IMG/VR virus record: IMGVR_UViG_3300024518_003391
Span: 1 to 58,233 of that record
Strand: one strand, 5' to 3'
Source of the DNA: a virus
Lineage: Duplodnaviria; Caudoviricetes
Length of the DNA: 58,233 bases
Shown here: one piece after another, positions 1 through 53,466 of the stretch
Position numbering within the stretch: the stretch's first letter is position 1
Layout of the letters: every line of letters begins with the position of its first letter
The notes under the pieces: model-generated
The model's input: only the letters and a program-made list of their open reading frames with translations
Database searches by the model: none
What the model was told of the DNA's origin: nothing
Made by a program: the position numbers and the translations under genes

Positions 1-135
1 GACGCTCCGCGCCGCACCGTCAATCGCGCCGTTTTGGCCGTAACCGCCAATATCGAAAAGGTTCGGGCCGCCGCCGGCCAGGTGCATCCAGTGACCGATA
101 ACTCCCCCATAACGCCGGTGTTGGCGGTACGGAAT
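1..135. repeat. Terminal direct repeat / circular assembly overlap (copy 1)
   Basis: 1-135 matches 58099-58233 except at position 9 (G) versus 58107 (A). Confidence 0.95.
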
Positions 136-180
136 AGCCGTTATTTCGCCGAACGATGGTTTTCGGTTGCGGAATATCAC
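1..180 (-). CDS. 5' part of the LamG-like virion protein, continuing across the circular junction into 57475-58233
   Basis: GTG at 180 overlaps the stop of the upstream gene and reads MIFRNRKPSFGEITAIPYRQHRRYGGVIGHWMHLAGGGPNL, in frame with the 57475..58185 ORF. Confidence 0.75.
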   Translation of the reverse strand, partial: MIFRNRKPSFGEITAIPYRQHRRYGGVIGHWMHLAGGGPNLFDIGGYGQNGAIDGAARSV

Positions 181-671
181 GTTTGCATCTCATACGGTAC
201 TGCCGTGAGTGAAAATCCGCTAACATTTGCGGACGCCTCAAAGTTGTCGGCCGTCCCGTTCCACGAAACCGGCATAAAATACCGGGCCGGGAGAAAGATC
301 CTGTCACTTTTAACGAATTCAACGGAAAGCGCGGCCTCGTCAACCTTGACGACAAGGATGGGGTTGCCGAGATTTAACAGCTTGTCCTCAGCGCTGACGG
401 CTATATCGCCGGTGCCGTCGTCGTTGTCCGGATGCGTGCCGTCGCTTGTTTTCGCATAGATTCTTACAGTCTCATCGACGACCGGCGTGGTCGCTGCCGT
501 GAACCAGAACCGTGCGACATATTCCAGAGCCCGTGCGGCGACGCCGAAGTCATGTATTGCGCCTTGACGACCCGTTCCTGCGGGAAGGTTGTTCAGCGTC
601 ATCGCGTACGTCCCGGCGGAATCGTGCCATGTAATCGCCGCCTCTTCGTTTATATATTGACGATTCGCCAT
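177..671 (-). CDS. Putative virion structural protein
   Basis: 164 aa, acidic and beta-rich; tightly coupled within the late operon. Confidence 0.6.
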   Translation of the reverse strand: MANRQYINEEAAITWHDSAGTYAMTLNNLPAGTGRQGAIHDFGVAARALEYVARFWFTAATTPVVDETVRIYAKTSDGTHPDNDDGTGDIAVSAEDKLLNLGNPILVVKVDEAALSVEFVKSDRIFLPARYFMPVSWNGTADNFEASANVSGFSLTAVPYEMQT

Positions 672-673
672 AT

Positions 674-988
674 TTACACGCTGGTATCAACGCCGGCCAG
701 AAAGTTAACGAGCCCGTTGACGGTAAACTGTAAATCGTTGTCTGTCACAGCCTCACCCGCAGCGTTAACCGTCGCGTTTTGAAGAACGATCCAAATGGCG
801 CGGTCGGCTTCCGCGATAGGAGCAGTGTTACTGGACAGGACGGATACCGCCCAGACGAACCGTTCCGCATGATTAGCCGTCACAGCCCCCTCGTTGCGTA
901 CGTCTTCGGCTGCGTCGGCAATCGCGGCGGCGATCCGCTCCCTGAGTGAGACGCTTCGTGTTAAGTCGTATGTGGCTTGTAGTGCCAT
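674..988 (-). CDS. Hypothetical protein, probably virion-associated; first gene after the putative late promoter
   Basis: 104 aa, GAGG RBS upstream, 2-bp gap to the next gene. Confidence 0.65.
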   Translation of the reverse strand: MALQATYDLTRSVSLRERIAAAIADAAEDVRNEGAVTANHAERFVWAVSVLSSNTAPIAEADRAIWIVLQNATVNAAGEAVTDNDLQFTVNGLVNFLAGVDTSV

Positions 989-1008
989 ATCATACCTCTA
1001 AACAAAGG

Positions 1009-1056
1009 AAAGCCCGCTCTTGACCCATTCGCCCATGGGAGTTAAGAGCGGGCTTT
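1009..1056 (-). terminator. Intrinsic terminator in the late leader
   Basis: 13-bp perfect inverted repeat AAAGCCCGCTCTT/AAGAGCGGGCTTT, followed on the minus strand by CCTTTGTTT. Confidence 0.75.
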
Positions 1057-1096
1057 GGTCTCTGATCTAAGATAATCGAGTCTTACGGTCGCTACA

Positions 1097-1125
1097 TATA
1101 TACACTATGCTCGACGGGCTGTCAA
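1097..1125 (-). promoter_or_regulatory. sigma70-type promoter (putative late promoter)
   Basis: Minus strand TTGACA-17 nt-TATATA. Confidence 0.65.
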
Positions 1126-1283
1126 GTGTTTTGTTGCTTTTTGTCGGCCTTTTTGTCTTTCTTGTCTTTCTTGGCTTGTTTTACTCTGAGGCTGTTCTCA
1201 ATAGCTTTGCGCCTTTGCGCGCGTCCACTGTTTCGCTTCAGCGCGTCCACGACTGTTGGGAATTTCCGCTGTCCGACTGACAT
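1122..1283 (-). CDS. Small Arg/Lys-rich protein (53 aa), not in the ORF track
   Basis: GAGGA RBS, then MSVGQRKFPTVVDALKRNSGRAQRRKAIENSLRVKQAKKDKKDKKADKKQQNT. Confidence 0.6.
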   Translation of the reverse strand: MSVGQRKFPTVVDALKRNSGRAQRRKAIENSLRVKQAKKDKKDKKADKKQQNT

Positions 1284-1311
1284 AGTTAGGGTCCTCGCAA
1301 CTTCAGTTAGT

Positions 1312-1356
1312 AAAAGGACAGCGGGAACGGCGATAGGGGGCGCCGCCCCCGCTGTC
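1312..1356 (-). terminator. Probable intrinsic terminator
   Basis: GACAGCGGGGGCGGCG...CGCCGTTCCCGCTGTC stem followed by CTTTT on the minus strand. Confidence 0.6.
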
Positions 1357-1503
1357 TGGAAACGTTAATGGTTGCCCATCCCAGATGATGAGCGTGGATC
1401 CAGTGCACAACGCACTGGTTGGTAGGCGCATCGCGGCTTTATTAAGCCGGTCAACGCCACAAGGTTGGCACGGTTTTAGCGGCTCGCGTCCGGCATGTAC
1501 GCA

Positions 1504-1740
1504 TCACAGAGCATCGCCCCCTTGCCATCCCCAGCCACTGATTCGACTCAGGACGTCAAGGGGATTTCCACGAAACAGCGTGCCCCCGCTGAGATTCGCC
1601 CGTGTGAGATCTGATCTTGTCAGGTTTGCCCCGCTGAGGTCTATCTGACATGTATCGTGATCTTCCCGATATCGGTTAAACTCCTCAACCTTCCCGGCTT
1701 TCAGGAGTTCAATCAGTTGCTTTTTACTCAGTTTCGTCAT
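1504..1740 (-). pseudogene. Truncated paralog of the pentapeptide repeat protein
   Basis: MTKLSKKQLIELLKAGKVEEFNRYR is near-identical to the N-terminus of 1764..2537; only about 4 pentapeptides follow, then unrelated sequence. Confidence 0.65.
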
Positions 1741-1763
1741 GGTCGATTCCTTTCGAGCGATTG

Positions 1764-2537
1764 TCAGCTGTTTTCGTTCACGCTGAAGGTCCTTTTTATG
1801 TAACAGATAATTGCTCCAGAAACGCCGCACCCTTGGAGGAAGGCGTGCGGGATCTCTCCGCAGGATTGTTCGATAGTATCTATCCCGATTGTGCAGGCGC
1901 CACTATGTTCAACCGATCCTAAGCCCTTCACCGTTCTGAGATTAACCGAGGCGAAGACGGTACTTATTACCCGAGCGTTGTCGAGGTTCGCCCCGGCAAC
2001 CTCGGTCGTATGAAAGTATGCTTCTCGGAGATCGGCGTCTGTGAGGTCTGCGTCTGTGAGGTCTGCGCCTCTGAAGTTTGCTCTACTGAGGTTTGCCCTG
2101 TTGAGGTATGCCCCACTGAGGTCTGCGCCATATAGCCGTGCCCCACTGAGGTTTGCCTCACTGAGGTCTGCCCCACTGAGGTCTGCCTCACTGAGGTATG
2201 CCCCAATGAGGTCTGCCCCAATGAGGTCTGCCCAGTTCAGGCGTGCCCTAATGAGGTTTGCCCCAATGAGGCTTGCCCCAATGAGGCTTGCCCTAATAAG
2301 GTTTGCCCCACTGAGGCTTGCCCTAATAAGGTTCGCCTCGTTGAGGTCTGCCCCACTGAGGTTTGCCCCAATGAGGTTTGCCCTATTGAGGTTTGCCCTA
2401 TTGAGGTTTGCCTTAATAAGGTTTGCCCCACTGAGGTCTGTAAGCGCATAGTCAGTATCCTTCCGATACCGGTTAAACTCCTCAACCTTCCCGGCTTTCA
2501 GGAGTTCTATGAGTTGTTCTTTGGTCAGTTCATCCAT
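1764..2537 (-). CDS. Pentapeptide repeat protein
   Basis: About 30 A(D/N/S)Lxx repeats with 15-bp DNA periodicity; start at MDELTKEQ after a GGGAGAGG RBS. Confidence 0.95.
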   Translation of the reverse strand: MDELTKEQLIELLKAGKVEEFNRYRKDTDYALTDLSGANLIKANLNRANLNRANLIGANLSGADLNEANLIRASLSGANLIRASLIGASLIGANLIRARLNWADLIGADLIGAYLSEADLSGADLSEANLSGARLYGADLSGAYLNRANLSRANFRGADLTDADLTDADLREAYFHTTEVAGANLDNARVISTVFASVNLRTVKGLGSVEHSGACTIGIDTIEQSCGEIPHAFLQGCGVSGAIICYIKRTFSVNENS

Positions 2538-2938
2538 AGTCGCCTCTCCCTGAAGGCATTCTCCTGTAGCGCGTATGACGCGCGCCCTGCTGACACTCGA
2601 CGACGCCACTGCATAAACTCCAAAGCGATCGCCATCTGCTGAATAATACTTTGGTGTTCCGAATATGGCATTATCGCCAACTCTTCGGCAATCTTACGGA
2701 GCCGTAAGTCGGTGATACGCATGCGCCCCCGGCCCAGCAACTTATCGCATGTTATATCCAGTGCATCAGCAAGTTGCTTCACCTTGTCGCTGTTTGGTCG
2801 CCTGCTGCCGGTTTCATAATACCAAATGCAGTTCTGTGACAGTCCGGCACGATCTGCTAATTCGGACTGTGTCATCCCCATGTTGGTACGATGCTCCTTC
2901 AGGCGTTGCCCGAATGATGAACCTATCGTCTTAGTCAT
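2525..2938 (-). CDS. XRE-family HTH transcriptional regulator
   Basis: FGQRLKEHR..GMTQSELADRAGLSQNCIWYYETGSRRP..LADAL. Confidence 0.92.
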   Translation of the reverse strand: MTKTIGSSFGQRLKEHRTNMGMTQSELADRAGLSQNCIWYYETGSRRPNSDKVKQLADALDITCDKLLGRGRMRITDLRLRKIAEELAIMPYSEHQSIIQQMAIALEFMQWRRRVSAGRASYALQENAFRERRLWMN

Positions 2939-3416
2939 GGATGTTGCCCCGTAACACGGTGTTAAACGCCTTGCCCGTATCCTCGACTTGACGATAGGTC
3001 ACACCGGCCGAGTCGTATAAACGTCTTGCGATAACGCTTTCACATTCATCGTATTTGTATAAATCAGCATAGATAACTTCGCGGATTCCAACTTGGATAA
3101 TCGCCTTCGCGCACTCATTGCACGTGAAAAACAGAACGTATATCCGGCAACCGTCAAGGTTGGCTTGGTTCGAGTTGAGTATCGCATTGAGTTCAGCGTG
3201 GATGACGGCCTCAGACTTCGCCGGGGAATCCCACGACCACTCCTCATCGGATACGCCTCGCGGGAATCCGTTATATCCGCAACCGACCCTGATATTATTC
3301 GCATCCACGATGACGGCGCCCACTTGGGTGCGAGGGTCTTTTGAGCGCTTCGCCATGACCCTTGCGCCCTCCATGAACGTCTCATCCCAAGATGCGACGC
3401 CTGTTCGCTTGCTCAT
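2931..3416 (-). CDS. dCMP deaminase
   Basis: RSKDPRTQVGAVIV, GYNGFPRG, HAELNAI and CNECAK zinc motifs; start at MSKRTG after GAGGAGG. Confidence 0.93.
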   Translation of the reverse strand: MSKRTGVASWDETFMEGARVMAKRSKDPRTQVGAVIVDANNIRVGCGYNGFPRGVSDEEWSWDSPAKSEAVIHAELNAILNSNQANLDGCRIYVLFFTCNECAKAIIQVGIREVIYADLYKYDECESVIARRLYDSAGVTYRQVEDTGKAFNTVLRGNIHD

Positions 3417-3677
3417 TTGGCCTCCTCTTCCTGAAATGACAACACCAGAGACTCGGGATAATCTCCCCGTAGTCATCAACCTGGCAGCCGTAACGTTCCT
3501 CCTTCTCGTCGCACTCACAGAGGCCCAGAAAGAGCGGCCCGGCAATCCGCACTTTGACCCGGCGGTGCGGTCAGGCTTGCGCATTAGGCGAGCGTGTTGT
3601 TGCGTGATGAGTTCCGGTACCGTCATGTGTTAGTCTCTAAGGGACGCGCGGCGCTAGTCGTTTCTCAGGTTAGCTTT

Positions 3678-4142
3678 TCATGCCGACCAATCCTCGGTCA
3701 GCTGTCGGGTGTGATAGTGAGTGAAGCCCTTCAGCAAGTGAAGAGATCCGCTGTAGTAGCCGTTACTACTGTTCCTAAAGGCAACCGTGCACCGTCCCTT
3801 GGGCGTTCGTATCTCATACCCATACACAATATCATGCTCTTGTCGGGTGCGGCCCGGCTGTAAGAACGCGTCCGGGATGGTTCCCTCTTTCAGCGCCTCA
3901 ACGCTCAACACCACTTGACCAAGCAGTGCAGGTAAGCCGATTATGTCGGCAAACCAGGACTCGGAGCATCAGTCGCCAACAGCCTTGTAAGCAATCGGCT
4001 TAGTAAGACGCGAACTAAGGCACCGGCACTCGAACACTAACAACTCTTCGCTTTCGGCAACCCAAACACTATCCACCTTCTCCCCTACCAACTCTTGCAT
4101 CGTCTCGCATACAGCCTCGGTATCAGGCTTGTTTATCATCAT
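3678..4142 (-). CDS. Conserved phage protein (recalled as DUF7448-like) with an in-frame UGA at 3969-3971
   Basis: The ORFs 3969..4271 and 3678..3914 share a frame and read YKAVGD*CSESWFADI...FRNSSNGYYSG; GGAGG RBS before the ATG at 4142. Confidence 0.7.
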
Positions 4143-4267
4143 GTCGATTCCTCCCTCTCCACTGCATGTGTTCCAATTAGCGCTGCCCCTCTCACCAGTC
4201 GCCGTCGCTGATTGAGACTCGCCGGCATGAGGGCGCAACCGGTTCGCGTTGTAGCTCGGCCTCATCC

Positions 4268-4552
4268 TCATACGTCCGTCGTCTCAATATGCCCCTCGAC
4301 TTCGATATACTCCGTTGCGGCGGCGCGGATATAATCGCCTTCGGTCATAGTATCATCGGAGGTCGCACAGCCGCATAGCCTACATACCCACGCAAGGATA
4401 TCAAACGAATCCGGCCCGCCCAGCCGCCAGTTAGTGTGAATCTCATCACAAAACCGACACTTCGCCTTATCGCCTTCTGCCATCGCAAGACCAGCGAGGG
4501 TGTCATCCGACCAAACGGATTCGGAGCCGGCTCGACTCAATAGCACGCTCAT
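4268..4552 (-). CDS. Hypothetical zinc-finger protein
   Basis: CRFC...CRLC pairs; overlaps the methylase stop codon. Confidence 0.55.
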   Translation of the reverse strand: MSVLLSRAGSESVWSDDTLAGLAMAEGDKAKCRFCDEIHTNWRLGGPDSFDILAWVCRLCGCATSDDTMTEGDYIRAAATEYIEVEGHIETTDV

Positions 4553-5559
4553 ACGACCGCCTCGATAAGCCGCTGTGCCATTAGCGGCGGAACAGAGTTG
4601 CCGATAATCCGCATCGATAGCGCAATATCCAGTTTCTTAGTGGCCGAGCGTGCCGGCCACTCATAATCATCAGGGAAGGTCTGCATCCGAGCAATGGCAG
4701 GGATCGTGACCTTTCGCACGTCGCCGGGGCCAAGTTCGCAGCGGATTGTTTGCCGGTCACAGGAGGCCGTCACTGCCCACAACGGCTGATAGCCGAAACG
4801 CACAGTGGGCGGCCGGTAGCCGCCGGGCGCAACTGGGTTCATATCCTTACCCTGCATCACATACGCTCGTGTCGGCGCTCTCAGTGCCTTACCGTCAACG
4901 ACGAACAAGCCCCGTTTCTTATTACGCGCCTGATCAACGGCGCCCTCTTGCCATTCGGCAAACTTGGACGGCGGGAGCCCGGGGATTAAATCCTCAATTG
5001 CTTCGTACCAGCCCAGCCGCCGCCATTTCGGGTAGAGCATCAGATCTCGCCTCCGTGTCGCAATCAAGAATAGCCGTTCTCGGCTCGATGCCACGCCGAA
5101 ATCAGCCGCGTTCAGAATCGGCGCGTCGATGAAATAACCCAGAGAGAGTAGACACTTCTGAATCTTCTTAAACGGCATAATCTCTCCGCTTTTTGGCTGA
5201 CTAGCGTATTCTCGAACATTTTCCAGGATAAATACGTCGGGTTTCAACGTCCGAAGAAAGAGGCCGATAGCGTCTCCGACCTGGTGGGCGTCGTCTCGAT
5301 TGGGCTTGCGGCCTTTATTTAGCTTGAATGCGCGAGAATAAGTCTGACACTCCGGAGACGCGAGAAGCACATCAACGGGTTCAAGCGACCGCGGATCCAC
5401 ATCGCGAATGTCCTTGACCGTGACATGATTGCCTAAGTTCGCAGAGTATACCGTCGCTGTCGCCGAATCGGATTCAACCGCCCAGGCCGGTGTTAGGCCG
5501 GCGGCGATGGCCCCTAAGCTGAATCCTCCGCCGCCGCAAAACAGATCTCCGAAAGTCAT
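4549..5559 (-). CDS. DNA (cytosine-5) methyltransferase
   Basis: DLFCGGGG (motif I), SPECQ (IV), ENV (VI), SRERLF (VIII), RMQTFPDDY, IGNSVPP (X). Confidence 0.95.
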   Translation of the reverse strand: MTFGDLFCGGGGFSLGAIAAGLTPAWAVESDSATATVYSANLGNHVTVKDIRDVDPRSLEPVDVLLASPECQTYSRAFKLNKGRKPNRDDAHQVGDAIGLFLRTLKPDVFILENVREYASQPKSGEIMPFKKIQKCLLSLGYFIDAPILNAADFGVASSRERLFLIATRRRDLMLYPKWRRLGWYEAIEDLIPGLPPSKFAEWQEGAVDQARNKKRGLFVVDGKALRAPTRAYVMQGKDMNPVAPGGYRPPTVRFGYQPLWAVTASCDRQTIRCELGPGDVRKVTIPAIARMQTFPDDYEWPARSATKKLDIALSMRIIGNSVPPLMAQRLIEAVV

Positions 5560-5837
5560 ATCCCGGCCTCCGCTAACGCGTCCGGCAGCCCAACACGCCC
5601 CGCCAGATCTTCGTATGTCGCAACACTTAGATTGCCGTAGCCGTCCCGTGCAAAGACTACCGACTTCGCAACCCTAAAATATAGAACCGACTTCGCCCGC
5701 CCCGCGACCTTGGCGCGGCGGCCTACTACGGTGTCGTTCCCGTCAATCGTGAACACATCACCGATACGGAGTGTGCGGCTGTATTGTAACGCGCGCCTAT
5801 AAACAGCCTCTTGTGTCGCTGTCATTGTTCGTCCCAT
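5556..5837 (-). CDS. Hypothetical protein
   Basis: ORF coupled to the methylase by an ATGA overlap. Confidence 0.55.
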   Translation of the reverse strand: MGRTMTATQEAVYRRALQYSRTLRIGDVFTIDGNDTVVGRRAKVAGRAKSVLYFRVAKSVVFARDGYGNLSVATYEDLAGRVGLPDALAEAGI

Positions 5838-6025
5838 ACCTTTCGCTAAAAGCCTTGCGAATATCCCACCGGCTTCGCAGGTTTGACTCCGGACAGACGG
5901 CCATTGTCGTCTTCTCCTTTCACAACCTCAACTCGGTTCAGCAACGGCGCGTCATCGCGTATCCGCCGTTCAGCCATCGCCCTGTCATCGCCCTGTCATC
6001 GCACGACTCCGGCGGTTAAGCGCGT

Positions 6026-6811
6026 TCACTCTACAACCCCCGCTTCATCGTTTAGATAACGCTCGTAAATGACCATCTCGTCGGCAAACTGCTTGACGAC
6101 CTGGCTGTCGTTGCGCTTGCCCTCAATCCGAGTCTTCCCTCGATTGAACGCCACCGCCGTTGACGCATACGAACTGTCGAAGCTGTTTATACCGATGTTT
6201 CTCAGTTCGCGGATCCATTCTTTCCGCCCTACGCCGAATGCATGTAGAGGGTGATGCGGCACGGCCTGTCTGACGAACCGGCAAACGTCATACAGGCCCT
6301 TCTTTGGAGAGCGCATGCAGACCGAACCGATGGCAATCCAAACGTCTGCCATATCGAACACCCCATAATTCCGATAGGCCTCAATACACTGCTGATACTC
6401 GCTCAACTCGTATCCCTGAATTACGAAGACTTTGACGCCGCACACGTTCGCGTTCATGAACGCCAGCGCGTTGCGTAGCGTCTTTCGGAGCGCATCCTGT
6501 GACTCAACGCCGTTCTTCGATAGCATGTGCGGCTCCATCGGCAAATCGAGCATGGACACGTAATCGGCGTCGAGGGCGTTGGCCGTCTGAATCACGTAGT
6601 CCTGGTTGTCCGCCCAAGAGATCTGTCCCTTCTTCCATGCGGAGATCATGCCTGAATCGATGAACAGTTCTTTCGCCAGGTGGATATGCCGTTTCATCCG
6701 GCCAAAGAATAGCTTGAGCCGCCATGCTGATGCGAGGATGCGGATCTGGTTCGGATAGTGTGTGAGGTGATCGGTCCGATCCGGCGTGCAGTGAAAGTAG
6801 TGGACGCTCAT
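6026..6811 (-). CDS. dpdA: DpdA-like / tRNA-guanine transglycosylase-fold protein (putative DNA 7-deazaguanine insertase)
   Basis: FIDSG, LDLPMEP, VIQG, IGSVCMR, LHAFG and SFDSS motifs in TGT order. Confidence 0.75.
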   Translation of the reverse strand: MSVHYFHCTPDRTDHLTHYPNQIRILASAWRLKLFFGRMKRHIHLAKELFIDSGMISAWKKGQISWADNQDYVIQTANALDADYVSMLDLPMEPHMLSKNGVESQDALRKTLRNALAFMNANVCGVKVFVIQGYELSEYQQCIEAYRNYGVFDMADVWIAIGSVCMRSPKKGLYDVCRFVRQAVPHHPLHAFGVGRKEWIRELRNIGINSFDSSYASTAVAFNRGKTRIEGKRNDSQVVKQFADEMVIYERYLNDEAGVVE

Positions 6812-7140
6812 GTCTGCGAATTCCGTATATTCAGCGCGTGGTTCATTCGCCCGCCCGATTCAACCGCTAGCAGGTAGGCGTTGTGCAGCCGCTCAACCAT
6901 CTCCCCAAGGCACATCTCGCAATCGCCGAAATCCCCTTCGACATCAATCACAGGCATCTTATGCAACATCTCGCGGACGTCCTGCACGTCGGCCGCCAGC
7001 CTTTCATAGTCGTCGTTCATGCTCTCTAAGCCCGCACGTTCTTCCAACAACAATCCATGAGCTAAAGTAAGCCTTTCGATCTCTGCCACTAACGCCTTCC
7101 TTATTACTTTCGATTCTTTCATCGTTATACATCTCCACAA
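6808..7140 (-). CDS. Hypothetical coiled-coil protein
   Basis: ATGA overlap with the dpdA-like gene; start uncertain. Confidence 0.55.
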   Translation of the reverse strand: MWRCITMKESKVIRKALVAEIERLTLAHGLLLEERAGLESMNDDYERLAADVQDVREMLHKMPVIDVEGDFGDCEMCLGEMVERLHNAYLLAVESGGRMNHALNIRNSQT

Positions 7141-7184
7141 CTGCTAAGTCTTCACTGTCGCCGATCAGGATAGCCAAAATCCGC

Positions 7185-7604
7185 TCATACGCTTTCCTTA
7201 ACCCGAACCCACGCGCCCGCTTCCCCCAGATTCAGCTCCAAATGACGCAAGAACGAAACGATCTGCTCTGCCCGTGATTCCTTCAGGCGACCACGCTTAC
7301 GATAGATTGCGAAGCCTTCGCCCTGACGCGACACCCGCACGGCATCCGAGAGCGCCGCCGGCTCTTTTGTGAGAAGCATTTGACGTAATTCCGCGAGGTC
7401 CTTCTCGTTCGATCTATAGGCTTTCACCAGCGCATTCCGTGCAGTTGCCGGCGACCCGTTGCGCCAGTACGTGGCAATCATGAAGACGATGAACGACTCG
7501 TCAACGCACGCTTCTCGACATCGATGAATGAGCGCTTCCCACTGGGAATCCCGGAGAACGTCCTTCAGGTCTGATCGCTGTGCTTGGCGTTGTTCAGGTG
7601 ACAT
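7185..7604 (-). CDS. Hypothetical protein
   Basis: 139 aa ORF coupled to the upstream gene. Confidence 0.6.
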   Translation of the reverse strand: MSPEQRQAQRSDLKDVLRDSQWEALIHRCREACVDESFIVFMIATYWRNGSPATARNALVKAYRSNEKDLAELRQMLLTKEPAALSDAVRVSRQGEGFAIYRKRGRLKESRAEQIVSFLRHLELNLGEAGAWVRVKESV

Positions 7605-7944
7605 TTGCCTTTTTCTTTCGTAGTTTGGCGGATAGACGCCTCAACCGCCCCAGATGGTCGTGGTGAACGTCCGGCGGCCAGCTACTTCTATCCATGGTCG
7701 TCAGCGCCGAATCCTCATAATGGTCGTCGATTCGGCGTTCTAAATCCGCTGTTTCGAGCCATTCGCCAGCGTTCAACGGTCGTAACACCGCCTTGACGGT
7801 CGTCCGATTGTTTCGGATGAGTTCGACAAGAGCGGGCGGCAACTGTCCTTTCCGGCCAGCCCAGATTCTGTCGCCGTCAAGTTTTGGCTGGACGCGGACA
7901 AATCGGCACTGTGCTAAGAGATGGTGAATATTTGTTGAGGTCAT
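7594..7944 (-). CDS. Hypothetical protein with a TubC-N-docking-like N-terminus
   Basis: LLAQCRFVRVQPKLDGDRIW..LPPALVELIRNNR pattern, often seen next to primases. Confidence 0.5.
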   Translation of the reverse strand: MTSTNIHHLLAQCRFVRVQPKLDGDRIWAGRKGQLPPALVELIRNNRTTVKAVLRPLNAGEWLETADLERRIDDHYEDSALTTMDRSSWPPDVHHDHLGRLRRLSAKLRKKKANVT

Positions 7945-8372
7945 AGAAGTTGCGAATCCTCATCCTCCGGGACAATGCGCGTCGCATCGTCGTAATACTC
8001 CGGGTAGCAATCTCTGATATGAGCGATGTCTCCGACCGTCAAGTCGTACCATTCGCCACCAACGCATTGGGGCTTAAATTCGCGGTGAAGATTACGTTCA
8101 GCTCTCATTCGCCGCTCCAATCCCTCACGAATATCCGGCGGCAACACCATATCCGAGACGTCGCCATTGCGCCAGTATTCGAGAGAGTTTTCAATGAATG
8201 CCTCGACCGTTTTTGCGAAAACGGTGTCAACGGTTTTCGCCCCCGCATTCACATAAGCATTGAGAAGGACAATGAATCCGTCCACATAACCGCGTCTATA
8301 TGCCGCTTCCGGTTCATCTTCCGGCGGGAATTCGATGTTGAGTAGTTCTTTCGCTGTCATTGTCCGTAGCAT
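7941..8372 (-). CDS. Hypothetical protein with a C-terminal GIY-YIG/T5orf172-like remnant
   Basis: AERNLHREFK..VGGEWYDLT motif. Confidence 0.5.
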   Translation of the reverse strand: MLRTMTAKELLNIEFPPEDEPEAAYRRGYVDGFIVLLNAYVNAGAKTVDTVFAKTVEAFIENSLEYWRNGDVSDMVLPPDIREGLERRMRAERNLHREFKPQCVGGEWYDLTVGDIAHIRDCYPEYYDDATRIVPEDEDSQLL

Positions 8373-8409
8373 CTCGTTGTATCTCCGTTCTTAGGTTTTT
8401 GCACAGGTT

Positions 8410-8775
8410 ATTAACCGGTTTTTACACGCACCAACTAATGGCTGAAAGCCTGTCATAGCCTATCTCTAAGTAGTTATTACCTTTTTACACATAATAAAAA
8501 CATAGGATTTAGGGGGCATACCCCCCTTGTGTAAAAAGTAAAAACCCCTTCCGTCTAGTCATAGCCTACCTTCTGGCTATGTGTAATAACTGTGTAATAA
8601 CTGTGTAATAACCTATGTCGCTATTGGGTGACATAAGGGTACTTTTGGGTATAGGGGGGGGGACTTGGGAGTATTTGGTGTAAAAACCCCTTGCGTTCAG
8701 TCATAGTCTACCTTACAACCCCGTGTAAAAACCGTGTAAAAACCGTGTAAAAACCTCCTCGGCGTGTAAAAACCC
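8410..8775. promoter_or_regulatory. Putative replication origin with iterons
   Basis: AT-rich noncoding stretch; TGTGTAATAAC x3 (8580-8612), CCGTGTAAAAA x3 plus one (8721-8773), GTCATAGYCTA x3; lies directly downstream of the primase-helicase. Confidence 0.8.
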
Positions 8776-8777
8776 CC

Positions 8778-10889
8778 TTATTCATCCTTGAGCGGATAAA
8801 AGCATTCGGTGGGGCGTCCGCCCTTCTTGCCTGATAATTCCTTGCGACACGTTATCAATGCGCTTTCCGTCAGCGTTGTAACACATTCATCAAGCTGGCG
8901 TTTCGACAGCCGCGACTTTCGATATAACGCGCTCCGGAGGACGCCGGGCTTGGCGCGAATGATGTCTATCACTTTATTCCTGTTCGCCATTTCTTCGTTA
9001 TACGACACTTTGTCCAGCAGTAGCGCTATGGATTGCTTCAGATAGTCGCACAGGCGGATGGCGTATTGCATCGCATCCGCCGAGATTTCGCGTCCGGGCG
9101 TATCCAGGGCGGTCGTGGCCTGAACGTCAATCTGATAGATTGTGGCAAACTTTAGGCAGTAGGGCATCAGGCGGGCGTAGAATGCGCTGATAAGCCCCTC
9201 ATGCTCTGTGTTCATGACTGCTTCAGCCTCAAGGCTTGTCGCGAAAGCGGTGAACAGATTTTTTGCCTCATCGGTGACGCTCATCCCGCCGTTGAACATG
9301 CGAGTGACAGCGTCCAACTTGTGTAAAAGACCCTCTTTCGCGTCGAGGTGCGGTGCTTCGGGCCATGCCAGGAAACGCCGTTTCTCCGACGCGATGACCC
9401 AGAGGAACCTGGGGAGGAACCCGCCGCGCATATTTCCTTCAGAGAGACAAGCGTTGAGCCAGTCAATAGTAGACGCCGCCATGATGTTGACGAACGGCTT
9501 TTCAACTTTAAGCATCCCATCCGATTGCGTGCGGCGATGCCACACGGCCGGACAGTCAAACAGCGCAGTTAGATCGGCTTTATAGCCGCGCATGTATGAC
9601 CGGTGCTCGAACGCTTCAAGTTGAGATGCAATTTCACTCCACGCGAAAAGCCCGTAGCTCTTTTCCGTCGCCAGGTGCTTGACGAACGCCTCCGGCGACA
9701 TTTGGTCGGGAAACGTCACGGGTTCGCCACACCAATCGTCTAGCAGGTACCGGGCGGTATCGATTGACGTGCTTTTTCGGTATAGCCCGGACGGCGCAAC
9801 GATTGCCAGCCACATATTGGGGCGGAGCGTCGATTGACCGTAGCGGATATATGAATTCCGACACGCCATCGAGAGAATCGACATGCCGCACATCATCGTG
9901 AACTGATCGGGGGCGTCGGTCGTCGGCTCAACGTATTCGATGTAGCTATTCAGGAATGAACTGGGCGGGACAAGATCACTTCGGTGGAACGGCGCGTCTT
10001 TGCGATGCGCCTGTGGGTCTGTGATGATTAGCGTGTCGGCTTCGGCCTGGGCGGGAGACGGGATTTGTTCGACATTGCTCCGACCACGTTCAGGTTCCGG
10101 CCTGTGCTGCTCCCAGGCGGCTTTGGCGATTCGCCTGACTTCGCCGTCGGAAAGCGGCGGATCGCAGTCTTGGTTCTCGTACAACAGAGCGCTTTCAAGG
10201 GCTTCAAGCGTGTGCAACGTCCGACGCAGCGCACACGCTTCACGGTACAGGGTGTCATTGCGCGAACCTTCAGCGATTATCCGTTTCCCCTGCTTGCCCT
10301 TTTTTCGCGACTTTCGCTCATTCGCTTTCGGCAATCGGTCAACCAAAAAAGCCGGCATCGGCCCGGCAGGTTCAGTGTTGATTGCGTATCGCTCCCCGGA
10401 GATGTGCAAGGACGGTGCGAGTATGATGTAGCCGCCGGTAGAGCGCACGTCGAACAGATCCGCTGTCTCCACGGCATTCTTGAGTGCGACCGGTGACTGC
10501 TGGAAAATGACATGATTCCCGCCCCCGCCTGTCCTTTGGATTGTCGTCTGGGGAAACTCATCAGAAAACAGCGCGGTAAAGTTCGCTACAGCTTTGTCGC
10601 TGTCTAGGTCAATGCAATCTCTGCCGGACGGGGCGCCCATCGCCGCGCCGATGCTCGCGTGCGGGAATCGCGCCCACCACTTCTCAATTATTTTCAGGTC
10701 TGACGTCGCCGCCTTGACGCCCTTGAGTGTGCGCGGGTGTTTAGCGGGACTGCCACAGTTTGCGCCTTTTGGACAACTACATATGTAGCCGTCCGCCGGG
10801 CTGTCGCCTAGCAGTTGCGGCTCAAACACCGGAAAGACCGCCCACCCCTGTGATGCGTAATCTAGGGCGGCGTCTAAGTGAGTATTCAT
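8778..10889 (-). CDS. Bifunctional primase-polymerase + PriCT + DUF3987-like helicase with C-terminal wHTH
   Basis: ALDYASQGWAVFP, AKHP, CIDLD, RTGGGGNH, DVRSTGGYII.APSLH; EGSRNDTL; APSGLYRKSTS P-loop; GFLPRFL. Confidence 0.92.
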   Translation of the reverse strand: MNTHLDAALDYASQGWAVFPVFEPQLLGDSPADGYICSCPKGANCGSPAKHPRTLKGVKAATSDLKIIEKWWARFPHASIGAAMGAPSGRDCIDLDSDKAVANFTALFSDEFPQTTIQRTGGGGNHVIFQQSPVALKNAVETADLFDVRSTGGYIILAPSLHISGERYAINTEPAGPMPAFLVDRLPKANERKSRKKGKQGKRIIAEGSRNDTLYREACALRRTLHTLEALESALLYENQDCDPPLSDGEVRRIAKAAWEQHRPEPERGRSNVEQIPSPAQAEADTLIITDPQAHRKDAPFHRSDLVPPSSFLNSYIEYVEPTTDAPDQFTMMCGMSILSMACRNSYIRYGQSTLRPNMWLAIVAPSGLYRKSTSIDTARYLLDDWCGEPVTFPDQMSPEAFVKHLATEKSYGLFAWSEIASQLEAFEHRSYMRGYKADLTALFDCPAVWHRRTQSDGMLKVEKPFVNIMAASTIDWLNACLSEGNMRGGFLPRFLWVIASEKRRFLAWPEAPHLDAKEGLLHKLDAVTRMFNGGMSVTDEAKNLFTAFATSLEAEAVMNTEHEGLISAFYARLMPYCLKFATIYQIDVQATTALDTPGREISADAMQYAIRLCDYLKQSIALLLDKVSYNEEMANRNKVIDIIRAKPGVLRSALYRKSRLSKRQLDECVTTLTESALITCRKELSGKKGGRPTECFYPLKDE

Positions 10890-11005
10890 CTAGTTTGCCT
10901 TGTCTCATCCATGTGGAATGTGATATAATACCCCTGGTTCAGCCGCCTCATGACGTCTTTGGTCAGTCGCGTGGAGCGGCGTTTTTGTGCCCTTTGCCGG
11001 TTGGC

Positions 11006-11266
11006 TCAAGATATGTTCTCTCTAAGCTCGGACGCTCGCCTTTTGTGCGTCTCAAGCAACGCCCGCAGTTCCTTATTCTCGTCCCTTACCCGCTCAATGT
11101 CGGCTTTGGCGTACAGCTTCCCTCGCGGCGGGTCGACCACAGGGATTAGCCTCTTCTCAGTCGCCAACTTACGAATACGTGACCGTGTACATCCATAGAT
11201 CTCAGCCGCTTCGCTTGTCGTTACTAAGCACATTTGCTCTAGTTCTTGGGCTGCGATATTTTTCAT
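11006..11266 (-). CDS. Small HTH DNA-binding protein (excisionase/MerR-like fold)
   Basis: VTTSEAAEIYGCTRSRIRKLATEKRL. Confidence 0.75.
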   Translation of the reverse strand: MKNIAAQELEQMCLVTTSEAAEIYGCTRSRIRKLATEKRLIPVVDPPRGKLYAKADIERVRDENKELRALLETHKRRASELRENIS

Positions 11267-11287
11267 TTTCTAGCCACCTCGTCCCTA

Positions 11288-11316
11288 AGTATAGCACTTT
11301 TATCGCCCTATGTCAA
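11288..11316 (-). promoter_or_regulatory. sigma70 promoter for the HTH/primase operon
   Basis: Minus strand TTGACA-17-TATACT with an extended TG. Confidence 0.75.
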
Positions 11317-11369
11317 TAGGCATGTCATCCGCAATCGCCGCGACGCCCGAAGAGCCTTTTTTGTGGCCG

Positions 11370-11783
11370 CTACGCGTCTTTCTTGTTCCACGGCCTAAAC
11401 GCCAGCAGGCCCTGAATATCAGGCCACGTCCCATTGAACTGCGCCGCTCGATCATCAAGCGTGATAAATGCCGGCGGCTTCTCTCGCGGGAAATCAAGGC
11501 ATAGGATGGGCTTGTCGGGAAAGTCCGGTTTTGATAAACCGTTGGCCTGTTCAATCAGTAAGTGCCCCAAATCCTTGGCGCCCTCCGACGTAAGTCCCAG
11601 ATGCGCAATCTCTTTCCCGAACGCCAGAATAACCTTCCCTTTGTAAGCACTGACTCCCATGCGAAGTTCGCCCTGGTCCTGCGGCGTCAGCATGCCTTCC
11701 GGGTACTCGCCCGTGGGGCCGAGATTCAACCGCTCCATTTCCTCCATGAGAACATCGTTTAAGTGGTCTTCATGATGTGACAT
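11370..11783 (-). CDS. Hypothetical protein fused to a collapsed HAD-phosphatase remnant
   Basis: AAGGAG RBS; C-terminus KPILCLDF-PREKPPAFITLDDRAAQFNGTWP. Confidence 0.6.
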   Translation of the reverse strand: MSHHEDHLNDVLMEEMERLNLGPTGEYPEGMLTPQDQGELRMGVSAYKGKVILAFGKEIAHLGLTSEGAKDLGHLLIEQANGLSKPDFPDKPILCLDFPREKPPAFITLDDRAAQFNGTWPDIQGLLAFRPWNKKDA

Positions 11784-11820
11784 CTTAATCTCCTTATATC
11801 TTGGTTGTTTTGTGCCCCGG

Positions 11821-12057
11821 TTACTCGCAAGCCCTTTCTTGCTCCTCAAACAATTCCTCACGGGCTCGCACAAGGTCTCCCATAACGCCCTGAAGGCCGT
11901 CATGGGCGTCGCCTAGATTTTCTCGGTTCCGTGGGCCGTGTTCAGAAGCACGGCGCCATAAATCCCCCACGCTCTCACGCAAGCGCCTTGCTTGCCCCCA
12001 AGCCGCCTCAATTTGCTCTAGTTGCGTCTGCTCAACCTCTTCTGGTACTGCACTCAT
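11821..12057 (-). CDS. Hypothetical protein
   Basis: GGGGG RBS, helical ORF. Confidence 0.55.
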   Translation of the reverse strand: MSAVPEEVEQTQLEQIEAAWGQARRLRESVGDLWRRASEHGPRNRENLGDAHDGLQGVMGDLVRAREELFEEQERACE

Positions 12058-52132: not shown

Positions 52133-53466
52133 CAGATATACCTCACCGAACGCGATGTCGTCCGGCGCGGCGCGACAACACTCATCACAGCATACCTTTT
52201 TTGGTCACAGCCGTGGTCGTCAATCTTGGCCGGCTCATCTTTCGCCACACCCGCTCCGGACACCGCCCATTCATAGCCGAGTATCTCTTCGAGCGTTGAT
52301 TGCGGTCGCTTGCGCTTGATTGGTCCGTCCGTGTCCAGTAGTTTCGGGTCGGCGTCTACCAGCGCATCCCGACAGATGAATAGCTCATCATTAGCGATTT
52401 TTTCGTATGTCTTTTCGATTCCCAGTGCAACATCCTTTTTCGCGCCGATGGTGCGTATACCGTTCTCCGCGAGCGTCAATCTGTCGGACACGTCGTGATC
52501 AGCGACAGTGTATGCGTATCGTTCGCCGATCGAAGCCTCGTTTATCATCCCGGCGAAGTCCTTGACGCTGATACCCGACCAGTAGATCTCTCGATACATA
52601 TACATCTTCCGTCCGTCAATTACGCGCCAGAACCCGCACACGTGCGGGTTGTTGCCGCCGAAGTCGATTGACCTGAAGTTGAAGTTATCAGGCCACTTCG
52701 CCCCATCGGGAAGCGGGGGCACGGCATCGATAACGTGTTTGGCATCATCGAAACAGTCGTAGATACGTCCGGCGAAGCCGACCCATTCACCCAAGACCAT
52801 ACGGCGGTAAAACAGACCCTTGATGCGTTCAAGGGTCGCCAGGTACGCGGCGGATAGAGTCGGGTTGTCGAACGTCGTGACGCGGATAGTAAGCGTGTCG
52901 GAATCCTGTTGCTCGACGAATCGCTGATATAGCCAGTGACTCGGACTGCCGGGGTTACTCGCCATGAAGATTTGGGGCGTTGACCCGGCAACTTCATACG
53001 ACAACCGGGTCGTAACCATGTCGAAATCGGATTCATCCAGTTCATACGCTTCGTCAATGTACGCTTTCGTCAGTTCAAGCGAGCCGATTTTAGTCAGCTT
53101 ATCGATGCCGAAAAAGAGTATCTGCGACCCGTTGGAGAGGGTCGCCTTGAACTCGCTTTTCGCCCAGTGCTTGATTAGGCCGTATTCGCCTGCGTTGTCG
53201 TCTTCACTCGCCCATCCGCAAGCGTCCACAAGAAAACTGCGAATGGTGGTGTTGAACAGCGTAGCACGGACCTTGCGAAAGACACCGAAGCGCCCGCCCG
53301 GGTATCGCAGGGCGTCTTGAAGCACACGCTCTACCACCGGCCTAGACTTGCCGGCGCGCACCGCCCCCGAAATTATATTGAACTTCTTATCGGACGCCAT
53401 GAACGGCGCCTGCTTCTCAGTCGGCTCAAAGGGCGGTTTGTTCAGCGTCGGCGCGGCTGCCGGCAT
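52132..53466 (-). CDS. terL: Terminase large subunit (PBSX-like)
   Basis: GAVRAGKS Walker A, YIDEA Walker B, SNP, DNP, IDFG, DDHGCD; probable start MPAAAP. Confidence 0.95.
   Translation of the reverse strand: MPAAAPTLNKPPFEPTEKQAPFMASDKKFNIISGAVRAGKSRPVVERVLQDALRYPGGRFGVFRKVRATLFNTTIRSFLVDACGWASEDDNAGEYGLIKHWAKSEFKATLSNGSQILFFGIDKLTKIGSLELTKAYIDEAYELDESDFDMVTTRLSYEVAGSTPQIFMASNPGSPSHWLYQRFVEQQDSDTLTIRVTTFDNPTLSAAYLATLERIKGLFYRRMVLGEWVGFAGRIYDCFDDAKHVIDAVPPLPDGAKWPDNFNFRSIDFGGNNPHVCGFWRVIDGRKMYMYREIYWSGISVKDFAGMINEASIGERYAYTVADHDVSDRLTLAENGIRTIGAKKDVALGIEKTYEKIANDELFICRDALVDADPKLLDTDGPIKRKRPQSTLEEILGYEWAVSGAGVAKDEPAKIDDHGCDQKRYAVMSVVAPRRTTSRSVRYI

What the first reader, a model, noticed from the sequence alone, without database searches (positions are those of the whole stretch)
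1764..2537. Pentapeptide protein resembling a bacterial pentapeptide-TIR protein with the TIR domain removed
Seen: an N-cap LIELLKAGKVEEFNRYR, about 30 pentapeptides, then a C-cap FASVNLRTVKGLGSVEHSGACTIGIDTIEQSCGEIPHAFLQGCGVSGAIICYI and a stop. Knowledge (recalled): bacterial proteins with this cap (VKGL..V.H.GPS.IGIDT...S.G.IP..FL.GCGV) continue directly into a TIR domain starting CFISYS. TIR domains are immune effectors or signalling enzymes, and pentapeptide folds can also mimic DNA (Qnr, MfpA). Inference: a captured host sensor retained as a dominant-negative decoy, and a possible clue to the host.
Basis: partly seen in the sequence, partly recalled or inferred. Interest (0 to 1): 0.7.

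Follow-up and report, generated by a model that had tools for sequence, protein, structure and literature searches.

The report
Phage pentapeptide protein lacking its TIR
An uncultured phage carries an intact gene for the rod-and-cap part of a widespread, unstudied bacterial pentapeptide-repeat/TIR protein family but without the TIR enzyme domain, which makes it a plausible, untested candidate for a phage-made decoy of a host immune protein.

Summary
Window 2537..1764 (-) encodes a 257-aa pentapeptide-repeat protein (about 34 units) with the N-cap and C-cap described.

The C-cap belongs to a large bacterial family.
- Representative search: 1914 hits at E<=1e-3. Of the 149 best examined, 112 continue through a roughly 20-residue linker helix into a TIR domain or its start.
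- Metagenome scan: 80 of 88 cap-bearing ORFs in the 80 closest loci show TIR.
- The phage protein stops inside that linker. No TIR remnant lies anywhere in the 58-kb window.

The predicted homodimer interface is the cap's most conserved motif (TIGIDT).

The decoy reading is unproven and is weakened by four points.
- Genuine TIR-less cellular relatives exist as a minority.
- The nearest relatives are only about 50% identical.
- The host is unknown.
- The PRP-TIR family itself has no shown defence role.

Qnr and MfpA membership is rejected.

My best reading (0.35) is an effector-less sensor/dimerisation module that interferes with host PRP-TIR-type proteins. Nearly as likely is a generic phage pentapeptide inhibitor of some other target.

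The scan had already noted the bacterial PRP-TIR family on other DNA.

The parts
1764..2537 (-). Gene for the 257-aa TIR-less pentapeptide-repeat protein (P0001), stop codon included
   Evidence: ORF list and translation. Pfam Pentapeptide E 3.7e-50. AF2 model with mean pLDDT 92.5.
2451..2537 (-). N-cap, residues 1-29 (two helices, 6-14 and 18-27), with the motif LIELLKAGKVEEFNRYR
   Evidence: Sequence and model helices. The family consensus is LxxLxxGxxxWNxWR. Here W is replaced by F and by Y.
1938..2450 (-). Pentapeptide-repeat beta-helix, residues 30-200, about 34 units
   Evidence: Register listing. Strand periodicity in the model. Foldseek hits to pentapeptide structures 4yc5, 2j8k, 3du1, QnrB1 and MfpA.
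2057..2437 (.). 15-bp tandem DNA array that encodes most of the repeats
   Evidence: TRF: period 15, 25.4 copies, 77% matches, score 340.
1818..1937 (-). C-cap, residues 201-240 (VKGL..H..TIGIDT..S.G.IP..FL.GCGV). It is the predicted dimer interface.
   Evidence: My cap HMM hits only here in the six-frame window, E 8.1e-26. 16 of 19 invariant or nearly invariant family columns are kept; the exceptions are D199N, P214A and S215C (plus the sequence). Interface residues 214, 216-223 and 238-240.
1767..1817 (-). C-terminal helix, residues 241-257. It corresponds to the linker helix that precedes TIR in relatives, and the protein ends here.
   Evidence: Helix 241-255 in the model. It aligns to FIAYIRSLSQNP of P0003, which goes on to CFISYS and TIR_2.
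2543..2550 (-). Shine-Dalgarno-like GGGAGAGG, five bases before the ATG
   Evidence: Read from the sequence.
2525..2938 (-). Upstream XRE-family HTH gene (137 aa). Its stop overlaps the pentapeptide gene's start by 13 nt, and its start overlaps the dCMP deaminase gene by 8 nt.
   Evidence: Pfam HTH_3 4.4e-13. PHROG transcriptional regulator families. Coordinates.
1504..1740 (-). Downstream 78-aa paralogue (P0002): same N-cap, about 4 pentapeptides, then an unrelated tail
   Evidence: Translation. Pfam Pentapeptide 7e-06. 63% identity to P0001 residues 1-59. DNA alignment.
1317..1356 (-). Terminator-like hairpin (16-pair stem, 12 G-C) that would end the HTH / pentapeptide / P0002 transcript
   Evidence: Consensus scan. 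This is a pattern match only: 3 sites were found against 2.3 expected.

Best explanation
The gene encodes a folded, expressed-looking protein made of the 'sensor rod plus dimerisation cap' module of the bacterial pentapeptide-cap-TIR family, without the TIR effector. It ends in the linker helix that normally leads into TIR.

Proposed mechanism, inferred and not shown. The phage makes the protein from a leftward operon that also holds nucleotide-metabolism and DNA-modification genes. The protein pairs through the conserved cap. It then interferes with host proteins of the same family in one of two ways. It may form mixed dimers that carry only one TIR, which would be subunit poisoning. Or it may compete for whatever the beta-helix surface binds. 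Either would blunt a TIR-based response.

Shown: the homology, the exact domain boundary, the absence of TIR, and the phage setting. Predicted by models: the fold and the cap-to-cap dimer. Inferred: that PRP-TIR proteins are immune sensors, that the host has one, and that this protein binds it.
For: Homology.
- Cap residues 178-257 gave 1914 hits at E<=1e-3 and 124 at E<=1e-10 among 1.84 billion representatives.
- Of the 149 best examined (P0004, 3951 aa, left out), 68 have a full TIR, 39 the start of one and 5 only its first strand. That is 112 of 149. Pfam TIR_2 matches 92 of the 150 sequences scanned.
- In the 80 closest metagenome loci, 88 cap-bearing ORFs were found. 74 have a full TIR, 6 a partial one, and 2 are frameshifted TIR genes.
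- All 88 cap ORFs in the 80 genome loci have TIR. That set was chosen with a full-length query and is biased towards TIR.
- All 6 other cap-bearing viral-contig ORFs have TIR.

Domain boundary.
- P0001 residues 128-255 align at 48% identity to P0003 residues 47-173. P0003 continues into Pfam TIR_2 at residues 182-313.
- P0001 ends 19 residues after the invariant G238.
- A six-frame search of the whole window finds no TIR, best E 0.4.

The protein looks functional.
- The frame is intact, with an SD-like site and translational coupling to the HTH gene.
- The model has mean pLDDT 92.5.

Dimer.
- The model supports binding of two copies; it does not show it. Score 0.55, best of 3 controls 0.00. 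The mark was reached by 20 of 30 proteins solved as pairs of one chain and by 1 of 23 solved as single chains. The runs agree in 100% of contacts and the partner's pLDDT is 91. My own alignment was used, so the calibration counts hold only roughly.
- The interface is the family's most conserved motif (residues 214, 216-223) plus residues 238-250.

Module logic.
- The same rod and cap carries other C-terminal domains in relatives: EAD7 in 2, a protein kinase in 1, and coiled-coil-like tails.
- Tandem arrays of paralogues occur: 3 in L125 and L130, 2 in L129, L148, L149 and L164.

Setting.
- The window is a phage: portal phrog_145 3e-61, primase and tape-measure matches, and a terminase with tblastn matches.
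- The gene lies in one leftward block with dCMP deaminase, a C5 methylase and a DpdA/TGT-like gene.

Precedent.
- A phage pentapeptide-repeat protein (24_60) is reported to counter the Sucellos defence system. I read one passage of bioRxiv 10.1101/2024.07.02.601686.
Against: - No role in defence has been shown for the PRP-TIR family. PADLOC models hit only the TIR part of relatives and nothing in P0001. In the 8 papers that hold both 'pentapeptide repeat' and 'TIR domain', none of the passages I read in 4 of them describes this two-domain family.
- TIR-less cellular relatives exist, so a TIR-less form need not be a viral invention or a decoy. Examples are L128, L142 and L145, P0029/P0154 on a 157,609-b contig, and pentapeptide-only Atlas clusters of 131, 157, 176 and 75 members.
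- 14 of the 149 best representatives end in the linker.
- The nearest relative is only 52-53% identical, so there is no sign of recent capture.
- Three nearly invariant cap positions are changed (D199N, P214A, S215C). Residue 214 lies in the predicted interface, which could prevent mixed dimers.
- The host is unknown, so it is not known to carry a PRP-TIR gene.
- Solved pentapeptide proteins such as MfpA and Qnr are known dimers (recalled). The dimer pass may therefore reflect likeness to solved structures.
- The contig is about 54% complete by CheckV. A separate TIR gene elsewhere in the phage is not excluded.
Confidence: 0.35

Rival explanations
1. It is a generic phage pentapeptide-repeat inhibitor. 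The beta-helix surface binds some other host protein, such as a DNA-handling enzyme, a restriction or defence protein, or a regulator. The cap serves only to make a homodimeric rod. The kinship with PRP-TIR proteins is shared ancestry without functional meaning.
For: - Phages often carry pentapeptide proteins. P0001 matches 10 PHROG families: 9 are of unknown function and 1 is a weak 'tail fiber' hit.
- One phage pentapeptide protein counters Sucellos (one passage read).
- The protein is mildly acidic, net charge -8 and pI 4.95.
- A homodimer is predicted: score 0.55, best control 0.00; the mark was reached by 20 of 30 solved one-chain pairs and 1 of 23 single chains; contacts agree 100%; pLDDT 91.
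- TIR-less cellular relatives show that the rod plus cap can work on its own.
Against: - It is not a Qnr or MfpA member: NCBIfam Qnr 52 bits against a cut-off of 240, MfpA 45.9 against 360.
- Its charge density, -3.8 per 100 aa, is close to the median of 125 relatives, -2.7. Nothing marks it as a DNA mimic.
- tblastn finds no copy of this cap in 50,697 deposited phage records. It is therefore not one of the usual phage pentapeptide families.
Confidence: 0.3
2. It is a passenger or decaying remnant. A host PRP-TIR or PRP-cap gene was picked up by recombination, lost its 3' part, and is carried without a selected function.
For: - It lies 1.7 kb from the contig end in a region of small unknown ORFs.
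- A truncated paralogue (P0002) sits next to it, with about 40 nt of identical DNA. That shows recent rearrangement.
- The 15-bp array is prone to slippage.
- No related phage carrying the gene was found: 0 relatives by cap, 0 by primase.
Against: - The 257-codon frame through a repeat array is intact.
- 16 of 19 conserved cap columns are kept.
- The end falls exactly at a domain boundary, with the linker helix retained.
- There is an SD-like site and a 13-nt overlap with the upstream gene.
- The fold is confident.
Confidence: 0.1
3. It works with the overlapping XRE-HTH gene in the phage's own regulation or in exclusion of other phages. It could be a protein partner or anti-repressor-like modulator, as HetL binds HetR in Nostoc (recalled).
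For: - Translational coupling to the XRE-HTH gene.
- Foldseek and NCBIfam likeness to HetL: 3du1 at E 2.6e-11; penta_HetL at 118.6 bits, below its cut-off of 260.
Against: - HetL membership fails its cut-off.
- No conserved HTH plus pentapeptide pair emerged. The clustering of neighbours in the 80 genome loci found no partner gene in more than 10 loci apart from ORFs overlapping the gene itself.
- That test covered TIR-bearing cellular genes, not phage genes.
Confidence: 0.1

Closest known systems
Bacterial pentapeptide-repeat / cap / TIR_2 proteins. An uncharacterised family, e.g. P0003, P0022 and P0041. The top genome hits are mostly MAGs titled Acidobacteriota or Acidobacteriaceae, with some Anaerolineae, Planctomycetaceae, Prosthecobacter, Prosthecochloris and Betaproteobacteria.
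   Same: N-cap type, pentapeptide rod, C-cap motif (16 of 19 conserved columns) and the linker helix. 48% identity over 128 residues to P0003.
   Different: No TIR domain. D199N, P214A and S215C at nearly invariant cap positions. F and Y replace the two N-cap tryptophans. It is encoded by a phage.
TIR-less cellular pentapeptide-cap proteins: the L128/L142/L145 lineage (259-269 aa), P0029/P0154 (143 aa), and Atlas pentapeptide-only clusters
   Same: The same architecture: rod plus cap, ending in or just after the linker.
   Different: They lie in cellular contexts: an amidohydrolase-like gene nearby and a convergent membrane-protein gene next to L145. They are 45-47% identical to P0001. A common origin with P0001 is neither shown nor excluded; the tree is unresolved and the AU test did not finish.
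Qnr / MfpA / AlbG topoisomerase-protecting pentapeptide proteins
   Same: Right-handed quadrilateral beta-helix (Foldseek). A C-terminal dimer is predicted.
   Different: It fails the NCBIfam cut-offs by a wide margin. It lacks their caps. Its charge is not unusual for its own family.
Phage 24 protein 24_60, a pentapeptide-repeat protein proposed to counter the Sucellos defence system (bioRxiv 10.1101/2024.07.02.601686; one passage read)
   Same: A phage-encoded pentapeptide-repeat protein with an anti-defence role.
   Different: Its sequence was not at hand, so no comparison was made. That paper mentions no link to TIR or to this cap in the passage I read.
Cyanobacterial Rfr-type proteins (Np275/Np276, 2j8k) and HetL (3du1)
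   Same: The best structural matches among natural proteins.
   Different: By sequence, no solved structure covers the cap. In the search with relative P0003, matches to pentapeptide structures end before the cap and the only later matches are to TIR domains.

Membership tests
Pentapeptide-repeat proteins (Pfam PF00805) | Tandem five-residue A(D/N)LXX-type repeats above the family cut-off | tested here: met
   167.4 bits against a cut-off of 20.2, E 3.7e-50. About 34 units.
Pentapeptide-repeat proteins (Pfam PF00805) | Right-handed quadrilateral beta-helix fold | tested here: met
   AF2 model with pLDDT 92.5. Foldseek E 2e-13 to 1e-11 against solved pentapeptide proteins. This is a prediction, not a solved structure.
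Pentapeptide-cap-TIR family (uncharacterised) | C-cap motif VKGL..H.GPSTIGIDT..S.G.IP..FLRGCGV | tested here: met
   My cap HMM scores E 8.1e-26. 16 of 19 invariant or nearly invariant columns are kept.
Pentapeptide-cap-TIR family (uncharacterised) | N-cap L..L..G...WN.WR | tested here: inconclusive
   The same helix pair and spacing are present, but both tryptophans are replaced: LIELLKAGKVEEFNRYR.
Pentapeptide-cap-TIR family (uncharacterised) | C-terminal TIR domain after the linker | tested here: not met
   No TIR by Pfam. The protein ends 19 residues after G238. No TIR in any of the six frames of the window, best E 0.4.
Qnr family (NCBIfam NF033086) and MfpA (NF000349) | Score above the curated equivalog cut-off | tested here: not met
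   Qnr 52 bits against 240. MfpA 45.9 against 360.
DNA-mimic proteins in general | A strongly and evenly negative surface that imitates the DNA backbone | tested here: inconclusive
   Net charge -8 and pI 4.95. The rod carries -5 over 161 residues. Charge density is -3.8 per 100 aa against a family median of -2.7. No surface map was computed.
Known anti-phage defence proteins (PADLOC-DB 2.0) | Match to any model | tested here: not met
   0 families for P0001 and for P0002. Relatives match only through their TIR part.
Phage anti-defence proteins that copy a host immune component (decoy or subunit poison) | Binds the host immune protein or its trigger and lowers defence | not testable with these tools
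   The host and its PRP-TIR genes are unknown. Only self-pairing could be modelled.

The most novel reading that the evidence does not exclude
A phage-encoded, effector-less copy of a one-protein TIR immune sensor poisons the host's pentapeptide-TIR proteins by forming cap-to-cap mixed dimers that carry a single TIR. This would be a natural dominant-negative inhibitor of TIR immunity. It would also be the first functional handle on a very large, unstudied pentapeptide-TIR family of soil and freshwater bacteria.
Probability: 0.25. Interest if true: 0.75.

Novelty: new member of a known kind. Interest (0 to 1): 0.45.

Why it matters
Pentapeptide-cap-TIR genes are numerous. The cap gave 1914 representative clusters. 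Strict peptide patterns found 510 loci in the one-genome-per-species collection. The genes often sit in tandem arrays, and at least one lies inside a phage-like element (L006). No function has been tested.

A phage protein that keeps exactly the rod and the predicted dimerisation cap but drops the enzyme domain gives a simple, testable hypothesis. It would address what the cap does (pairing) and whether the family is immune. It would also give a ready-made candidate inhibitor to use as a probe.

If the decoy reading is wrong, the gene is still the only copy of this cap found in phage DNA without TIR. None of the 6 other IMG/VR loci is TIR-less, and tblastn found no cap at all in 50,697 deposited phage records. 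In that case it is an ordinary phage pentapeptide protein of unknown target.

Tried and rejected
- Close relatives of the phage or of the gene. There was no DNA match of window 1-12000 in the phage collection. The cap as a single query found no viral-contig relative, and neither did the primase. The word-based protein search gave one hit for the cap at near lengths (P0003), none at longer lengths, and none for the N-cap.
- Host.
  - No tRNA genes.
  - The best cultured-phage terminase match is 34% identical, from a Thermobifida phage, with halovirus and Streptomyces phage matches at about 30%.
  - The cap is 40-52% identical in 5 genomes of different groups.
  - The portal is at most 28% identical over most of its length, and 32% over one 173-residue piece. 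It matched in 5 of 301 sampled genomes of the phylum of G001, a MAG titled Acidobacteriota.
  - No host could be named.
- Origin. A tree of 113 cap regions (116 columns) left P0001 without any supported sister. The AU test of 'P0001 plus the TIR-less lineage as one clade' did not finish in two runs of 288 s and was dropped.
- Conserved partner gene of cellular PRP-TIR. Clustering of neighbours in 80 genome loci gave only ORFs that overlap the gene itself and nothing else in more than 10 loci.
- Plasmids. No plasmid record covers 80% or more of a PRP-TIR query.
- Split TIR gene. L109 first looked TIR-less. It is a frameshifted TIR gene, with the rest of TIR in another frame downstream. L122 shows the same out-of-frame peptide. 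Neither was counted as TIR-less.
- Supplementary files of the papers could not be seen. Domain tables in the supplements of PMC7159879 and of bioRxiv 10.64898/2026.10.19.760177 may list pentapeptide-TIR architectures.
Full report
**What is in the sequence**

On the minus strand an ORF runs 2609..1764. The start that fits is the ATG at 2537.
- It has GGGAGAGG five bases upstream.
- It overlaps the stop of the upstream gene by 13 nt.
- It gives an N-terminus of the same length as in relatives.

The product (P0001, 257 aa) scores E 3.7e-50 against Pfam Pentapeptide. It has four parts:
- a two-helix N-cap, residues 1-29;
- about 34 pentapeptide units, residues 30-200;
- a C-cap, residues 201-240;
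- a last helix, residues 241-255.

At DNA level the rod is a 15-bp tandem array at 2057-2437, 25.4 copies at 77% matches.

After ...GAIICYI come ten more residues, KRTFSVNENS, before the stop.

It repeats the N-cap: 63% identity over 59 residues, with about 40 nt of identical DNA. It holds only about four pentapeptides before an unrelated tail.

**Setting**

The window is an IMG/VR virus record, linear, about 54% complete by CheckV. It encodes:
- a portal (phrog_145, 3e-61), a primase/helicase and a tape-measure-like protein;
- a large terminase, at most 34% identical to any deposited phage.

The pentapeptide gene is the third gene of a tightly packed leftward run: dCMP deaminase (2931-3626), XRE-HTH (2525-2938), P0001, then P0002. 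The overlaps are 8 and 13 nt. A terminator-like hairpin at 1356-1317 follows (a pattern match only).

Further upstream on the same strand lie a C5 cytosine methylase and a DpdA/TGT-like gene. The gene therefore belongs to the phage's replication, nucleotide and DNA-modification block. It is not obvious host flank.

**Homology of the cap**

Residues 178-257 were searched against 1.84 billion representatives. They gave 1914 proteins at E<=1e-3 and 124 at E<=1e-10.

I took the best 150, left out one 3951-aa protein (P0004), and classed the other 149 by what follows the invariant G238.

| What follows the cap | Count of 149 |
|---|---|
| Full TIR | 68 |
| Beginning of a TIR (cut by a contig end or frameshifted) | 39 |
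| First TIR strand only | 5 |
| Ends in the linker | 14 |
| Other tails | 23 |

The 'other tails' include two with EAD7, one protein kinase, coiled-coil-like tails, and out-of-frame junk. Pfam finds TIR_2 in 92 of the 150 sequences scanned.

The family consensus is VKGLExVxHxGPSTIGIDTxxRSxGxIPExFLRGCGVPDxxIxYxxSLxxxPxxxYSCFISYS. A linker of about 20 residues, a helix in the model, separates the cap from CFISYS.

P0001 aligns to the TIR-bearing P0003 over residues 128-255 at 48% identity. It stops inside that linker.

**Closest relatives**

A metagenome scan seeded with P0001 and three near relatives kept the 80 best loci of 511 confirmed relatives. The best is 52% identical. These loci hold 88 cap-bearing ORFs.

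| Class | Count of 88 |
|---|---|
| Full TIR | 74 |
| Partial TIR, running off the contig | 5 |
| Partial TIR, with a stop | 1 |
| Runs off the contig before TIR | 3 |
| No TIR in frame | 5 |

Of the five without TIR in frame:
- L109 is a frameshifted TIR gene. The rest of its TIR is a downstream ORF in another frame.
- L122 shows the same out-of-frame peptide and is probably frameshifted too.
- L128, L142 and L145 form one lineage with a true stop 17 residues after the cap model. In L145 a convergent membrane-protein gene follows, in an ordinary cellular context.

Other collections:
- All six other cap-bearing ORFs in IMG/VR contigs have a full TIR. One of them (L006) lies between a Prim-Pol primase gene and a gpA-type terminase gene.
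- tblastn finds no cap in 50,697 deposited phage records.
- A six-frame search of the whole window finds one cap and no TIR, best E 0.4.

**TIR-less relatives are real but a minority**

- Besides the L145 lineage, the 143-aa P0029/P0154 was seen on 4 contigs, the longest 157,609 b. The 227-aa P0152/P0155 comes from two sources.
- Five of the 14 'ends in linker' representatives stop exactly 17 residues after G238. That pattern is not what random contig ends would give.
- The ESM Atlas lists pentapeptide-only clusters of 131, 157 and 176 members as nearest by features.
- By structure the Atlas shows a mix: pentapeptide-only, pentapeptide-TIR, and TIR clusters of 210-221 aa that align to residues 192-255 without listed pentapeptide repeats. 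These are leads only, and the method was not calibrated for parts of proteins.

Together this suggests that the cap is a module of its own. It can stand between a rod and an effector, and either side can be absent.

**Structure and pairing**

- The AF2 model is confident: mean pLDDT 92.5, pTM 0.79.
- Its Foldseek matches are solved pentapeptide proteins.
- By sequence, no solved structure covers the cap (run with relative P0003).
- For two copies of P0001 the model supports binding but does not show it.
  - Score 0.55, best of 3 controls 0.00.
  - The mark was reached by 20 of 30 proteins solved as pairs of one chain and by 1 of 23 solved as single chains.
  - The runs agree in 100% of contacts, and the partner's pLDDT is 91.
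  - My own alignment was used, so the calibration counts hold only roughly.
- The interface is symmetric and tail to tail. It takes in residues 214 and 216-223 (the TIGIDT motif, the best-conserved stretch of the family), 238-240, 242-243, 246 and 250, and the last coil.
- In a TIR-bearing relative such a dimer would place two TIR domains side by side.
- Pentapeptide proteins such as MfpA and Qnr are known C-terminal dimers (recalled), so the pass may owe something to memory of solved structures.

**What it probably does**

TIR enzymes generally need to pair or stack to be active (established knowledge, not tested here). A strict S-x(1-4)-W-x(3)-E pattern is present in 47 of the 68 full-TIR relatives. 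That this motif holds the catalytic glutamate is recalled. The other 21 mostly carry variants of it.

Several features fit a self-contained sensor-effector family: a rod and cap with exchangeable C-terminal domains, tandem paralogue arrays, and presence on a phage-like element. No paper I could search describes the family (searches; passages read). PADLOC has no model for it.

A phage-made copy without the effector could act in two ways. It could form mixed dimers with one TIR only, or it could compete for the rod's ligand. I give this reading 0.35.

Four points speak against it.
- The nearest relatives are only about 50% identical.
- Three nearly invariant cap positions are changed (D199N, P214A, S215C). 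One of them is in the predicted interface.
- Effector-less cellular relatives exist.
- The host is unknown.

**Rivals**

- A generic phage pentapeptide inhibitor of another target (0.30).
  - It fits the many phage pentapeptide families of unknown function and the Sucellos precedent.
  - The Qnr/MfpA type is excluded by the family cut-offs.
  - The protein is no more acidic than its relatives.
- A decaying passenger (0.10). This is suggested by the truncated neighbour P0002 and by the lack of any related phage. It is opposed by the intact frame, the clean domain boundary, the coupling to the upstream gene and the conserved cap.
- A partner of the XRE-HTH gene in the phage's own regulation (0.10). 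Only the gene overlap supports this.

**Host clue**

None was found.
- The strict-pattern genome scan, ranked with a query that is probably acidobacterial, returned mostly Acidobacteriota MAGs, plus Anaerolineae, Planctomycetaceae, Prosthecobacter, Prosthecochloris and a betaproteobacterium.
- P0001's cap is 40-52% identical to the copies in five such genomes, and none stands out.
- The portal found only distant matches in 5 of 301 sampled genomes of that phylum: at most 28% identity over most of its length and 32% over one 173-residue piece.

**Earlier notes of this scan**

Three earlier notes describe the bacterial pentapeptide-TIR family on other DNA as large, uncharacterised and possibly immune: e1-4116694, e1-4292985 and e1-4099078. 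The last also notes other domains in the TIR slot. My counts agree with them. Other notes describe phage pentapeptide arrays for which DNA mimicry was not supported (e1-5969031). None of the notes shown reports a TIR-less phage copy.

**Verdict**

The homology claim is confirmed. The decoy mechanism is plausible but untested, and it is weakened by the TIR-less cellular relatives.

I class the protein as a new member of a known kind: the effector-less form of the pentapeptide-cap family, here in a phage. Interest 0.45.

Noticed in passing
window 1504-1740 (-): A 78-aa gene directly after the pentapeptide gene repeats its N-cap (about 40 nt of identical DNA). It has only about four pentapeptides and then an unrelated 25-residue tail. 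It is either a truncated duplicate or a mini-protein made of the N-cap alone.
   Followed up: partly
window 2057-2437: The pentapeptide rod is encoded by a 15-bp tandem DNA array (25.4 copies, 77% matches). Rod length could change by slippage.
   Followed up: partly
L006:4986-6035 (viral contig): A complete pentapeptide-cap-TIR gene sits between a Prim-Pol primase gene and a gpA-type large terminase gene. Phage-like elements therefore also carry the full-length, TIR-bearing form.
   Followed up: partly
L125, L130 (3 genes each); L129, L148, L149, L164 (2 each); L085 (3) and seven other genome loci (2 each): Pentapeptide-cap-TIR genes often stand in tandem arrays of diverged paralogues, as fast-diversifying sensor families do.
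   Followed up: no
L109:2782-4101 and L122: These two pentapeptide-TIR genes are broken by a frameshift at the linker, so gene callers report a 'TIR-less' product. Some apparently TIR-less database entries are of this kind.
   Followed up: partly
ESM Atlas structure rows 7 and 9: Clusters of TIR proteins of 210-221 aa align to residues 192-255 of P0001, and Pfam lists no pentapeptide repeats for them. The cap may also occur as an N-terminal extension of TIR alone.
   Followed up: no
window 6026-6811 (-), 4549-5559 (-), 53426-54814 (-), 2931-3626 (-): The phage carries a DpdA/TGT-like gene, a C5 cytosine methylase, a ParB-methyltransferase fusion and a dCMP deaminase. That is an unusually rich set of DNA-modification and nucleotide genes, and it suggests modified DNA.
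   Followed up: no
window 40927-43866 (-): A 979-aa ORF next to the structural genes combines two glycosyltransferase-like regions and a methyltransferase-like region, by PHROG matches.
   Followed up: no
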